Of a DNA stretch of 64,000 bases, positions 8,987 to 37,073 are shown in pieces; position 1 is the first letter of the stretch; each line of letters starts with the position of its first letter. A program made the position numbers and the translations under genes. Under the pieces are notes generated by a model that did not search any database, had not been told where the DNA came from, and was given only the letters and a program-made list of their open reading frames with translations. The stretch lies in assembly GCF_057098645.1 (NCBI RefSeq), contig NZ_CM169472.1. One strand, written 5' to 3'.

Positions 8987-9969
8987 TTCCTGATTATTTA
9001 ACTTTTATTCGCTTTCAGGATAAACGAAATCTGATATACATTTATGCTATTGGACTTATTCTGATAGGCTTTTATTGGAAAAATGCAGGGTTTACTTTTC
9101 CATCAGAGGATATTGGTGTAGTTAGTGGGATTCTGGCCCTGGTGCTGTATAATTTTATTTTTGATCTCAAGGCGTACTGGGCTTATAAATGCGTCACGAA
9201 GAATATCGATTTTTCGTGGTTTAAGAAAAAGCAGAACCACAAAATAGAATTATTTCTTACACAACCTCTGGTGGCAGGATTTCTGTCGTTAATCATGTTG
9301 AGTGCAATGAGTTGGGGGCTATACCAGCTTCTACCCTCGTTATATGCGCTGTTCCTGATTTCGTTACTTGGGCCGTTGGTCATCTTTCTGTTGTTTCGGA
9401 TGATCCGCACCAGTTATGTCAAGCAGGTCGCTATTTCAGTAGCGAAAAAAGTAAAATATAAAAGTCTGACTCGCTATGTGCTGCTTTCGGTGTGTATCTC
9501 AACGGTTGTTAACCTGCTTACTATCAGCCCGTTGCGTAACAGTGATTCTTTTGTGACAGAGGGGCAGTGGTTAACGTTTAAATCGATAATTGCATTGCTC
9601 ATTCTTTGTGGCGTAGTGTTGGCGATTAATCTATTTTTTCTGCGCTTCTCCAAGCGGTACGCTTTTCTGGGCAGGCTTTTTTTGCAGGAAATCGATCTGT
9701 TTTTCTCCAGTGAAAATGCGTTGTCGACCTTTTTTGCCAAGCCGCTTTGGCTTCGGTTATTCATATTGCTGGTTATTGAAGTGATGTGGATTACGCTGGT
9801 GTCGGTATTGGCAACGCTTGTGGAATGGCGGATTTGGTTTGAAGCCTATTTTTTACTCTGCTATGTACCGTGCTTAATTTACTATTTTTTCCATTGTCGG
9901 TTCCTCTGGCATAACGATTTTATGATGGCATGTGACATGTATTTCCGTTGGGGGCATTTTAATAAGTGA
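8983..9969 (+). CDS. ycdU: Polytopic inner-membrane protein YcdU
   Basis: 328 aa, multiple hydrophobic helices; ATGA overlap with the acyltransferase gene; position upstream of serX. Confidence 0.75.
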
Positions 9970-10120
9970 GGAAGTTACAGAAAGTGACCAGATAGCGCAT
10001 ATATGTTCTGTACTCTCTTGCGCATTTTGATTGTTGACTGAGCAATCAGACAGTTGATGTGCACGATTTCCCCTCGCCCTAACAGACGTGGGCGGGGGCT
10101 CCCGATGTGTGCAATATACG

Positions 10121-10148
10121 AAAAAAAAGCCCGTACTTTCGTACGGGC
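10121..10148 (-). terminator. Rho-independent terminator downstream of serX
   Basis: Plus strand A8 then GCCCGTAC-TTTC-GTACGGGC; on the minus strand this is a hairpin followed by a U-run just past the tRNA 3' end. Confidence 0.7.
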
Positions 10149-10161
10149 TCTTCTTTAAATA

Positions 10162-15143: not shown

Positions 15144-15794
<651 letters not shown>

Positions 15795-31553: not shown

Positions 31554-32749
<1,196 letters not shown>

Positions 32750-35360: not shown

Positions 35361-36407
35361 TTATTGTTTAACGGACCAGCGTACCGTTTCCCCGGCGAGG
35401 AATGGCACCAGCGTGTCATCAGTCAGTGCGATGCTTTCAGCAACCTGATGCTCTTCACGTACCAGTTCGATGAATGTGTCGTTGACCGGCAACCCATAGA
35501 ACTGCGGGCCATTTACAGAACAGAATGCTTCAAAGTGCTGCAGAGCATTCATCTCTTCAAAGACGGTAGCGTAACTTCCCAGCGCGGTTGGGGCGTTGAA
35601 GCAGCCCGCGCAGCCGCAACTGCTCTCTTTGCGATGACGTGCATGTGGCGCAGAATCCGTACCGAGGAATACTCGATTAAAACCGCTGGCGACCAGTTCA
35701 CGCAATGCCTGTTGGTGAATATTGCGTTTGAGGATGGGTAGACAATACAGGTGCGGACGCACGCCTCCAACCAGCATATGGTTGCGGTTAAACATCAGAT
35801 GCTGCGGAGTGATGGTGGCAGCCAGCCGTTCATTTCCGTCACGGACATAGTCGGCAGCATCTTTGGTGGTGATGTGCTCAAAAACGACTTTCAGCGCAGT
35901 CAGGCGCTGGCGCAGAGGTTCCATCACGCTTTCTATAAAGCGCGCTTCACGATCAAAAATGTCGATATCTGCATGTGTCACTTCACCATGCACCAGTAGC
36001 GGCATACCGATTTTTTCCATGCGCTCAAGTACCGGCATGATTGCGTCAATTGACGTCACGCCGTGGCTGGAGTTAGTGGTTGCGTTTGCCGGGTAAAGTT
36101 TTGCAGCGGTGAACACGCCTTCGTTAAATCCGCGCTCCAGCTCATTAGGATCCAGCGAATCTGTTAAATAACAGGTCATCAATGGGGTGAAATCGTGCCC
36201 GGCAGGTACGGCGTCAAGAATACGTTGGCGATACGCCACGGCAGCCTCAATGGTGGTCACGGGCGGAGCCAGATTGGGCATTACGATAGCCCGTCCATAA
36301 ATTTCGCTGGTATACGGCACGACAGTTTTTAACATGTCGCCATCGCGGAGGTGAAGGTGCCAGTCGTCTGGGCGGCGGATCTTTAATACCTGGGATGGTG
36401 CAGTCAT
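35361..36407 (-). CDS. pyrC: Dihydroorotase PyrC
   Basis: 348 aa; recognised. Confidence 0.93.
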
Positions 36408-36458
36408 TAATCTCTATGCTCCGGCTGAAGGGATGTTTTTGCCGGACACAAAGGATAA

Positions 36459-36474
36459 GCGGAAACGTTTTCCT
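36459..36474. promoter_or_regulatory. Putative PurR operator upstream of pyrC
   Basis: GCGGAAACGTTTTCCT contains the palindromic AAACGTTT core of the PurR box. Confidence 0.5.
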
Positions 36475-36480
36475 TTGCAC

Positions 36481-36507
36481 GAAAAATAAAGGGCGCGAAT
36501 GCGCCCT
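36481..36507 (-). terminator. Rho-independent terminator downstream of yceB
   Basis: GGGCGCGAATGCGCCC hairpin with A-run on plus strand (U-run on minus). Confidence 0.7.
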
Positions 36508-36512
36508 CGTGA

Positions 36513-37073
36513 TTAATCAGTAAATGGAATGACAATTTCGCCTGGCTTCACTTCAATGCCTTTCGCCAGTTTTTTCGCCATTGCTTCGCCCTGGCTGCCA
36601 TCTTCGCGCAGGACGTAAGCAGGTTGCTGGTTAAAGTAATTGCGTAATGCCTGGTTCAGATAGGGAAGCAACGTTTGCATCACCGTTTGCATTTTTTCCG
36701 GTTGTACCGTCGCATCGACCACTTCCATCTCTTTCAGGAAGATCGCACCTTTTTCTTTATCAAACACGGGCAGCGCTTTCAGCTTCAGTTTCATGGTCGC
36801 TTTCTGACTACCGAACAGGGAGTTCATGTCCAGATTGGCGTCTCCGGTTAGGGTAACCTTATTCGGCTCTTCGCGACCAATTTGGCTGGTCAGGTTTGTC
36901 AGAACAATATGGGCGTCAGCCACGCCGGGTAAACCGATATCTTTTGAGAAATTATTATGTTTCGCAAGCGACTGGTTAATTTCTTGTTCGGTGATGGTGT
37001 ATTGGGTGAGTTGATTACAGCCAACGAGCAGGCCACTGACGATCAATGCAGCGGCAAATAAAAACTTGTTCAT
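36513..37073 (-). CDS. yceB: Lipoprotein YceB
   Basis: Start MNKFLFAAALIVSGLLVGC (lipobox) at 37073; 186 aa. The longer ORF to 37274 would overlap grxB. Confidence 0.85.
   Translation of the reverse strand: MNKFLFAAALIVSGLLVGCNQLTQYTITEQEINQSLAKHNNFSKDIGLPGVADAHIVLTNLTSQIGREEPNKVTLTGDANLDMNSLFGSQKATMKLKLKALPVFDKEKGAIFLKEMEVVDATVQPEKMQTVMQTLLPYLNQALRNYFNQQPAYVLREDGSQGEAMAKKLAKGIEVKPGEIVIPFTD

What the first reader, a model, noticed from the sequence alone, without database searches (positions are those of the whole stretch)
36459..36474. PurR-box-like operator in the pyrC leader
GCGGAAACGTTTTCCT carries the AAACGTTT palindromic core of PurR operators, about 50 nt upstream of the pyrC ATG.
Basis: partly seen in the sequence, partly recalled or inferred. 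Interest (0 to 1): 0.2.

Follow-up and report, generated by a model that had tools for sequence, protein, structure and literature searches.

The report
Known PurR operator in pyrC promoter
This 16-base palindrome is the purine-repressor (PurR) binding site of the E. coli pyrC gene, first described in 1990; it lies in the promoter rather than in the transcribed leader, so the finding is correct but ordinary.

Summary
The sequence is present as reported (36459-36474). On the strand of pyrC (minus) it reads AGGAAAACGTTTCCGC and ends 51 nt before the ATG. The 8-bp core alone is no better than chance. A PurR matrix built from 28 ChIP-derived sites that exclude pyrC scores it 16.5 bits. That is the best hit in the 64-kb window and the only strong hit outside an ORF. 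It fills the spacer between the -35 (GTGCAA) and -10 (TATCCT) hexamers, at -29 to -14 from the start site. It lies outside the Rfam PyrC_leader match (36457-36408), so "leader" is a misnomer: this is a promoter-occluding operator. The box sits in the same register in all 17 Enterobacteriaceae pyrC promoters examined. The 40-nt promoter block is identical in 5373 of 5422 E. coli genomes. Held papers cite Choi & Zalkin 1990 and Wilson & Turnbough 1990 for direct, modest PurR repression of pyrC, although a 2011 ChIP-chip missed the site. One small new observation: other Enterobacterales families share the promoter skeleton but lack the left half-site, while several keep a right-half-like TTT(C/A)CGC. 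This may explain why the operator is non-consensus. Verdict: already known, low interest.

The parts
36459..36474 (-). PurR operator (PUR box), AGGAAAACGTTTCCGC on the gene strand. It occupies -29 to -14 relative to the C7 start, centre -21.5.
   Evidence: Scores 16.47 bits on a 28-site PurR matrix and is the top hit in the window. Geometry. Conserved in 17/17 Enterobacteriaceae. Literature: PMC3159470, PMC6245113.
36475..36480 (-). -35 hexamer GTGCAA, with a 17-bp spacer to the -10 hexamer
   Evidence: (G/A)TGCA(A/T)-N17-TAT(C/G)CT is conserved in 32 Enterobacterales pyrC promoters. This is inferred from conservation and spacing. The generic promoter scan did not call it, because it matches only 3 of 6 consensus positions.
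36452..36457 (-). -10 hexamer (Pribnow box) TATCCT
   Evidence: Places C7, C8 and G9 on CCGG, as described for pyrC in PMC6524683. Nearly invariant in alignment A1. The Rfam PyrC_leader model begins here.
36443..36445 (-). Alternative transcription start sites C7 (36445), C8 (36444) and G9 (36443), the basis of CTP/GTP-sensitive start-site selection
   Evidence: Positions derived from the sequence plus the description in PMC6524683. Start sites were not measured here.
36408..36457 (-). PyrC leader region as modelled by Rfam RF02372. The 5' hairpin arm CCGGC is at 36445-36441, the 3' arm GCCGG at 36425-36421, and the Shine-Dalgarno GGAG at 36422-36419.
   Evidence: Rfam match of 68.7 bits against a gathering score of 50, E = 6e-11. 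Predicted folding energy is -8.7 kcal/mol for the C7 transcript, -5.6 for C8, -5.8 for G9 and -3.0 for G10. Both arms are invariant in A1.
35361..36407 (-). pyrC coding sequence (dihydroorotase, 348 aa), the regulated gene
   Evidence: ORF. RefSeq annotation of identical DNA.
36482..36508 (-). Intrinsic terminator of the upstream gene yceB. It bounds the pyrC promoter region on its 5' side.
   Evidence: Terminator scan: 8-bp stem with 6 GC pairs, followed by a T-run. Coordinates.

Best explanation
This is the PurR operator of the E. coli pyrC promoter. PurR is a LacI-family dimer that binds DNA when loaded with hypoxanthine or guanine. It recognises this 16-bp imperfect palindrome, which fills 16 of the 17 bp between the -35 hexamer (GTGCAA) and the -10 hexamer (TATCCT). 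A repressor bound there excludes RNA polymerase and lowers transcription initiation when purines are plentiful.

The repression is modest. The left half-site is optimal, but the right half-site (GTTTCCGC) departs from consensus at two well-conserved positions: position 13 is C, where 27 of 28 reference sites have G, and position 16 is C, where 23 of 28 have T.

This purine control is layered on a separate and stronger pyrimidine control just downstream. There, CTP/GTP-sensitive choice between start sites C7/C8 and G9 decides whether a 5' hairpin (CCGGC/GCCGG) sequesters the ribosome-binding site.

Shown here: the sequence, the matrix score, the geometry relative to the promoter and leader, and the conservation. 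Taken from the literature: PurR binding and PurR-dependent expression. Inferred: steric exclusion of polymerase, and that the weak right half-site is the cause of the weak repression.
For: (1) The matrix built from 28 ChIP-derived PurR sites, which do not include pyrC, gives 16.47 bits. That is the best hit in 64 kb, and it falls within the leave-one-out range of genuine sites, 7.4-25.1 bits.
(2) It is the only hit of 10 bits or more that lies outside a long ORF.
(3) The box lies at -29 to -14, between the -35 and -10 hexamers. Cho et al. describe this as the general location of PurR sites, found at 14 of 32 regulated promoters.
(4) Rfam PyrC_leader matches 36457-36408, so the box is upstream of the transcribed element.
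(5) All 17 Enterobacteriaceae promoters carry the box in the same register, while the flanking terminator region and the hairpin loop vary freely.
(6) The 40-nt promoter block is identical in 5373 of 5422 E. coli genomes, against 3694 of 5258 for the adjacent 40-nt control.
[quoted passage not shown] Its repression is described as comparable to the three- to fourfold effect at carAB P1 and far weaker than at pur genes (PMC6245113). A RegulonDB-derived network lists purR -> pyrC (PMC8265036).
Against: Cho et al. 2011 did not detect PurR at pyrC by ChIP-chip, with or without adenine, and could not say why. By score alone, a 16.5-bit hit somewhere in 64 kb is not improbable: 28% of dinucleotide shuffles reach it. 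The whole core promoter is conserved along with the box, so conservation alone cannot separate a PurR constraint from a promoter constraint. I could not read the two primary 1990 papers, which are not held. Binding and fold-repression therefore rest on secondary citation and on my recollection of about twofold. Start sites were not measured here.
Confidence: 0.93

Rival explanations
1. The palindrome is just the pyrC promoter spacer. On this view it is conserved for promoter function, such as spacer geometry or polymerase contacts, and resembles a PUR box by chance. PurR would have no real role here.
For: The score alone is not significant at the scale of the window. ChIP-chip did not detect PurR at pyrC. 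The right-half-like TTT(C/A)CGC next to the -10 hexamer is kept in families that have no box, so part of the sequence is constrained by something other than PurR.
Against: Among the 17 Enterobacteriaceae promoters examined, the left half A(C/G)GAAAAC is identical in 14 and differs at one base in 3. It scores 11.5 bits on average, better than the 8.2-bit mean of genuine sites. The same spacer positions in 15 other Enterobacterales that share the promoter skeleton are indistinguishable from random, at -11.7 against -11.0. The promoter therefore works without that sequence, so promoter function does not explain its conservation. The literature also reports direct repression.
Confidence: 0.03
2. 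The site is mainly an operator for a different LacI/GalR-family repressor whose operator has a similar AAACGTTT core. The obvious candidate is the PurR paralogue RbsR. PurR binding would then be secondary.
For: The right half CGTTTC resembles, from my memory, the RbsR operator half-site (GAAACGTTTC) more closely than the PurR consensus CGTTTG. No tool result supports this idea directly.
Against: The full 16-mer matches the PurR consensus ACGNAAACGTTTGCNT at 11 of its 14 specified positions; at position 2, G is as common as the consensus C, which makes it 12. By my count from memory it matches the rbs operator at about 11 of 16. The literature attributes purine control of pyrC to purR. No RbsR matrix was available here, so the idea was not scored.
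Confidence: 0.03
3. The site lies in the transcribed leader. It would then act after initiation, either as a roadblock to elongating polymerase (as at purB and purR) or as an RNA hairpin.
For: PurR roadblock operators do exist at purB and purR. The sequence is palindromic, so it could fold if it were transcribed.
Against: [quoted passage not shown] With TATCCT as that box, the starts fall at 36445-36443, which is 14 to 16 nt downstream of the box's 3' end at 36459. The Rfam PyrC_leader match begins at 36457. The yceB terminator lies immediately upstream, so read-through transcripts should be rare.
Confidence: 0.01

Closest known systems
PurR operator of E. coli pyrC (Choi & Zalkin 1990, J Bacteriol 172:3201; Wilson & Turnbough 1990, J Bacteriol 172:3208)
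   Same: It is the same object: the same gene, the same species and the same 16-bp sequence upstream of pyrC. The flanking DNA is 100% identical to many RefSeq E. coli genomes. Cho 2011 and Charlier 2018 cite it as a characterised, directly repressed PurR target.
   Different: Nothing differs in substance. The primary papers could not be read here, so the coordinates relative to the promoter are my own derivation.
Canonical pur-regulon operators (purF, purHD, purT, purL and others; consensus ACGNAAACGTTTGCNT)
   Same: A 16-bp palindrome with a central CpG, placed between the -35 and -10 hexamers as at many PurR-controlled promoters.
   Different: The right half is non-consensus: C at position 13, where 27 of 28 sites have G, and C at position 16. 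The score of 16.5 bits is below the median of about 19 bits for ChIP-detected sites. Repression is reported as modest rather than strong, and the site was missed by ChIP-chip.
PurR operator of pyrD (CGGAAAACGTTTGCGT)
   Same: This is the sister case: a pyrimidine-biosynthesis gene under modest PurR repression that also uses CTP/GTP-sensitive start-site selection.
   Different: The pyrD box keeps the consensus G at position 13 and was detected by ChIP-chip in the presence of adenine. The pyrC box has neither property.
Rfam PyrC_leader (RF02372), the start-site-selection and RBS-sequestering hairpin
   Same: It is the adjacent element in the same regulatory region. Together the two elements set pyrC expression.
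   Different: The operator is DNA-level, protein-bound and purine-responsive. The leader is RNA-level, needs no protein and is pyrimidine-responsive. The operator lies entirely 5' of the Rfam match.

Membership tests
PurR (PUR box) operator | A 16-bp imperfect palindrome with a central CpG that matches the PurR position matrix or consensus ACGNAAACGTTTGCNT | tested here: met
   Scores 16.47 bits on a matrix of 28 independent sites, within the leave-one-out range of 7.4-25.1 bits, and is the top hit in the window. It departs from consensus at positions 13 and 16.
PurR (PUR box) operator | Located in the control region of a nucleotide-metabolism gene, typically between the -35 and -10 hexamers | tested here: met
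   The box lies at -29 to -14 of the pyrC promoter. Cho 2011 describes this as the general location. The start-site positions come from the literature description plus the sequence and were not measured here.
PurR (PUR box) operator | Conserved in orthologous promoters of related species | tested here: met
   Present in 17 of 17 Enterobacteriaceae promoters in the same register, while the flanks vary. Absent from 15 other Enterobacterales promoters that share the promoter skeleton.
PurR (PUR box) operator | Bound by PurR with its corepressor, in vitro (gel shift, footprint) or in vivo (ChIP) | not testable with these tools
   Secondary citation only. [quoted passage not shown] The primary papers are not held.
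PurR (PUR box) operator | PurR-dependent, purine-responsive change in expression of the downstream gene | not testable with these tools
   From the literature: pyrC is among the pyrimidine genes affected in a purR-deletion transcriptome, and its repression is described as comparable to the modest effect at carAB P1.
PyrC leader (Rfam RF02372) | The sequence lies within the transcribed 5' leader or the Rfam model | tested here: not met
   The Rfam match spans 36457-36408, and the box at 36474-36459 lies outside it. The start sites at 36445-36443 are downstream of the box.

The most novel reading that the evidence does not exclude
The pyrC operator may be a gain specific to Enterobacteriaceae, built on an older Enterobacterales promoter. 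The skeleton (G/A)TGCA(A/T)-N17-TAT(C/G)CT and the CCGGC/GCCGGAG hairpin predate it. So does a right-half-like TTT(C/A)CGC abutting the -10 hexamer. Enterobacteriaceae added only the left half-site A(C/G)GAAAACG. On this reading the non-consensus right half is inherited from the promoter and constrained by it. That would fix the operator at low affinity, and would explain both the modest repression and the failure of ChIP-chip to detect the site. Vibrionaceae appear to have acquired a consensus box at pyrC independently.
Probability: 0.45. Interest if true: 0.25.

Novelty: already known. Interest (0 to 1): 0.08.

Why it matters
It matters little as a discovery. The PurR-pyrC link has been textbook material since 1990 and is recorded in RegulonDB-derived networks. 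It is a valid positive control for the scan, since a reader with no tools recognised a genuine operator from the sequence alone.

Two modest points add value. First, the position is corrected from leader to promoter spacer, which changes the implied mechanism from roadblock to exclusion of polymerase. Second, the comparative data suggest how a weak operator can arise by adding one half-site to a promoter spacer that already resembled the other half. This also offers a sequence-level reason why genome-wide ChIP missed this validated site.

Tried and rejected
1. Enrichment of the 8-bp core AAACGTTT: not above chance, 3 matches against 1.73 expected, so I moved to the full 16-bp matrix.
2. Generic sigma-70 promoter scan: it found no promoter in 36300-36620. 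The pyrC promoter is too far from consensus, so it was defined from the literature description and from conservation instead.
3. Reading the primary papers PMC209125 and PMC209126, and the Turnbough & Switzer review PMC2415746: none is held.
4. Supplementary tables of Cho 2011, for the pyrC fold-change: not held.
5. Search for later ChIP-exo or iModulon evidence of PurR at pyrC: nothing relevant was found in the held library.
6. Rfam PyrC_leader in 20 non-Enterobacteriaceae loci: no match at the gathering score. Direct inspection nevertheless showed the promoter and hairpin skeleton in 15 of 17 other Enterobacterales, so the Rfam negative reflects a narrow model, not absence.
7. Transferring annotation from O157:H7 record NZ_AP018488.1: the window is not collinear with it throughout, so I checked hit contexts against the window's own ORFs.
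8. Fur box: a RegulonDB-derived network lists Fur as a regulator of pyrC. The best match to the 19-bp Fur consensus in the 161-nt upstream region is 12 of 19, it overlaps the PUR box, and 13% of shuffles reach it. This gives no support for a Fur site.
9. Other PurR-matrix hits in the window (28548, 15154, 15170, 5351, 57515, 773 and others): all lie inside long ORFs and score 14.4 bits or less, so I treated them as chance.

Full report
**What is there.** Window 36459-36474 (+) reads GCGGAAACGTTTTCCT, exactly as reported. The neighbouring gene is on the minus strand: a 348-aa ORF at 36407..35361. RefSeq annotates it as pyrC, dihydroorotase, in E. coli genomes whose DNA is 100% identical over this stretch, and 5425 of 5426 complete E. 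coli genomes hold the region. On the gene strand the site reads AGGAAAACGTTTCCGC. Its 3' end is 51 nt upstream of the ATG. Upstream lies yceB, whose stop codon is followed by an intrinsic terminator at 36508-36482. The pyrC control region is therefore confined to about 75 nt.

AAACGTTT occurs 3 times in the window against 1.73 expected, and 24 of 100 shuffles do as well.

- I built a position matrix from the 28 16-mers listed under ChIP-chip peaks in Table 1 of Cho et al. 2011 (PMC3159470). pyrC is not among them, so the test is independent.
- The pyrC site scores 16.47 bits on the gene strand. It is the best hit in the 64-kb window on either strand; the next best is 14.4 bits.
- It sits inside the leave-one-out score range of the genuine sites (7.4-25.1 bits, median about 19).
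- The exact per-position probability is 1.25e-6. That gives 0.16 expected hits per window under an iid model. Dinucleotide shuffles give 0.34, and 28% of them reach this score.

So the score alone would not be convincing. What makes it convincing is context. Only 2.5e-4 such hits are expected in a given 100-bp promoter. Every other hit of 10 bits or more lies inside a long ORF, whereas this one is intergenic.

[quoted passage not shown] At low CTP/GTP it starts two bases further downstream with G. The two extra C residues allow a 5' hairpin that sequesters the ribosome-binding site.

- On the sequence, TATCCT (36457-36452) is followed by TTGTGT and then CCGG. This puts C7, C8 and G9 at 36445, 36444 and 36443.
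- The 5' arm CCGGC (36445-36441) pairs with GCCGG (36425-36421), which overlaps the Shine-Dalgarno GGAG (36422-36419).
- The predicted folding energy is -8.7 kcal/mol for the C7 transcript, -5.6 for C8, -5.8 for G9 and -3.0 for G10.
- The leader is thus 36-38 nt long, and the PUR box occupies -29 to -14 (centre -21.5). It fills 16 of the 17 bp between GTGCAA (36480-36475) and TATCCT.

Rfam gives independent confirmation. The curated PyrC_leader family (RF02372) matches 36457-36408 at 68.7 bits, above its gathering score of 50, and the box lies entirely 5' of that match. This is a promoter-spacer operator. Cho et al. describe that position as the general one for PurR sites, found at 14 of 32 regulated promoters.

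**Conservation.** I fetched 80 pyrC loci from one genome per species. All 16 Enterobacteriaceae loci have a PurR-matrix hit of at least 14.7 bits, 49-74 nt upstream of the ATG. Coding-sequence control segments of the same loci average about 1-2 bits.

An alignment of 16 of these Enterobacteriaceae promoters, including the window's own, shows a sharp footprint. TGCAAA, the box, TATCCT and CCGGC are invariant or nearly so. GCCGGAGC is invariant again further downstream. The terminator region and the hairpin loop between these blocks are free to vary in both sequence and length.

Within E. coli, the 40-nt block from the -35 hexamer to CCGGC is identical in 5373 of 5422 genomes. The adjacent 40-nt control is identical in 3694 of 5258. 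One natural variant, strain SC476, has G->A at box position 3. G occupies that position in 25 of 28 reference sites and A in none.

**A small new observation.** Fifteen of 17 loci from other Enterobacterales families share the same promoter skeleton: (G/A)TGCA(A/T)-N17-TAT(C/G)CT, a C-rich start, and GCCGGAG before the ATG. These families are Yersiniaceae, Erwiniaceae, Pectobacteriaceae, Hafniaceae and Morganellaceae. None of these loci has a PUR box. I scored the two half-sites separately at the orthologous spacer position:

| Group | Left half (bits) | Right half (bits) |
|---|---|---|
| Enterobacteriaceae (n = 17) | 11.5 | 4.7 |
| Other Enterobacterales (n = 15) | -11.7 | -6.5 |
| Random expectation | -11.0 | -17.7 (sd 7.3) |
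| Genuine PurR sites, mean | 8.2 | 11.6 |

The left half in the other families is indistinguishable from random. Their right half is well above random, because Yersinia, Pectobacterium, Brenneria, Rahnella and Hafnia keep TTT(C/A)C(G/C)C next to the -10 hexamer.

The simplest reading is that the promoter and the hairpin control are older than the operator. Enterobacteriaceae would then have created the operator by acquiring the left half-site on a spacer whose right end already resembled a half-site. On this reading the operator's non-consensus position 13, which is never G in any of the 17, is inherited from the promoter and constrained by it. This is inference from 32 promoters, not a tested phylogenetic reconstruction.

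It does offer a sequence-level reason for two facts in the literature: repression of pyrC by PurR is modest (PMC6245113), and the site was missed by ChIP-chip 'for unclear reasons' (PMC3159470).

**Mechanism.** From established knowledge of the family, PurR is a LacI-family dimer that binds DNA only with hypoxanthine or guanine as corepressor; PMC6245113 says as much for the carAB PUR box. Bound at -29 to -14, it should exclude sigma-70 RNA polymerase and reduce initiation when purines are abundant. The steric-exclusion step is inferred from geometry.

This purine input acts on initiation frequency. The pyrimidine input acts immediately downstream, on which nucleotide initiation starts with, and hence on translation. 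The two controls are physically adjacent but mechanistically independent.

**What is known.** Cho et al. state that pyrC is 'directly repressed by the PurR', citing Choi & Zalkin 1990 and Wilson & Turnbough 1990. They count it among 15 regions characterised by in-vitro DNA binding and in-vivo mutational analysis, and they list it among pyrimidine genes affected in a purR-deletion transcriptome. Charlier et al. 2018 and a RegulonDB-derived network paper say the same.

I could not read the two primary papers. The fold-repression of about twofold is my recollection. It is consistent with the review's statement that repression is comparable to the three- to fourfold effect at carAB P1.

**Rivals.**
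- A pure promoter-spacer explanation fails. Fifteen related promoters function without the left half-site, yet the left half is identical in 14 of the 17 Enterobacteriaceae promoters and differs at one base in the other three.
- An operator for another LacI-family protein such as RbsR cannot be formally excluded, but no result here supports it.
- A leader or roadblock reading is contradicted by the start-site geometry and by the Rfam match.

**Verdict.** The element is already known, and interest is low.

Noticed in passing
L017:2070-2085, L018:2070-2085, L021:1396-1411 (nt 570-585 of the pyrC coding sequence): Two Yersinia species and Erwinia endophytica lack the promoter PUR box. They nevertheless carry a strong PurR-matrix hit inside pyrC, on the antisense strand: AAGAAAACGATTGCCT at 20.1 bits, and AAGGAAACGATTGCCT at 18.6 bits. 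The hit overlaps codons for G-N-R-F-L. It is absent in Erwinia psidii, Rahnella and E. coli. It could be a purB-style roadblock operator or a coincidence of codon usage.
   Followed up: partly
L078 (Vibrio hannami), box ending 66 nt upstream of the pyrC ATG; L060 (Photobacterium piscicola), box ending 97 nt upstream: Vibrio hannami has a near-perfect consensus PUR box, GCGTAAACGTTTGCGT (21.6 bits). It is followed by TT and a -10-like TATACT, and there is no CCGG hairpin downstream. Photobacterium has CAGCAAACGATTGCTT (15.3 bits). This suggests PurR control of pyrC arose separately in Vibrionaceae, with a stronger operator.
   Followed up: partly
window 31554-32748: An insert of about 1.2 kb, relative to other E. 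coli genomes, interrupts yceJ (cytochrome b). Matching records annotate it as an IS5-like (ISKpn26 family) transposase. Only 3 of 5426 complete genomes cover at least 80% of the 2.4-kb query spanning the insert and its flanks.
   Followed up: partly
window 1-10155: The left end of the window is an accessory segment next to the serX tRNA and ghrA. Matching records annotate beta-ketoacyl synthases, an ABC transporter permease, ycdU and hypothetical proteins. It is fully present in only 381 of 5426 E. coli genomes. The O157:H7 record compared here carries a different island at this position, with dynamin-like, patatin and CbtA/YeeU toxin-antitoxin genes.
   Followed up: partly
window 15154-15185 (+): Two PurR-like 16-mers lie back to back: AGGTTATCGTTTGCCC (14.3 bits) and AGGAAACCGCTTGTGT (13.95 bits). 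They sit at the 3' end of the 216-aa ORF that corresponds to csgD. They are intragenic and below the pyrC score, so they are probably chance.
   Followed up: partly
L016-L034 (non-Enterobacteriaceae Enterobacterales pyrC loci), the ~130 nt upstream of each ATG: Rfam PyrC_leader (RF02372) does not reach its gathering score in any of these loci. Yet 15 of 17 show the same -10 hexamer, C-rich start and GCCGGAG hairpin skeleton, with longer loops. The Rfam model seems too narrow to capture the family's real taxonomic range.
   Followed up: partly
L082:61-100 (E. coli SC476, NZ_LR778151.1): This natural E. coli variant has G->A at position 3 of the PUR box (AGAAAAACGTTTCCGC). G occupies that position in 25 of 28 reference sites and A in none, so the change should weaken PurR binding by roughly 6-7 bits on the matrix. 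In all, 49 of 5422 genomes carry a mismatch somewhere in the 40-nt promoter block.
   Followed up: partly
window 36400-36560 (-): A RegulonDB-derived network lists Fur as a second regulator of pyrC (PMC8265036). The best match to the 19-bp Fur consensus in the upstream region is only 12 of 19. It overlaps the PUR box itself, and 13% of shuffles reach it. The TGATTAATCA palindrome at the yceB stop codon (about 36519-36510) did not score better.
   Followed up: partly
L025:548-1277, L026:886-1283, L032:615-1329: In Photorhabdus and Arsenophonus (Morganellaceae), the region upstream of pyrC holds tandem arrays of two or three tRNA genes with near-identical Rfam scores. Enterobacteriaceae have yceB at this position.
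   Followed up: no
window 36300-36700: Five of the matches to the yceB-pyrC region in the E. coli collection lie on records labelled as plasmids. These may be mislabelled replicons or large chromosomal segments carried on plasmids.
   Followed up: no
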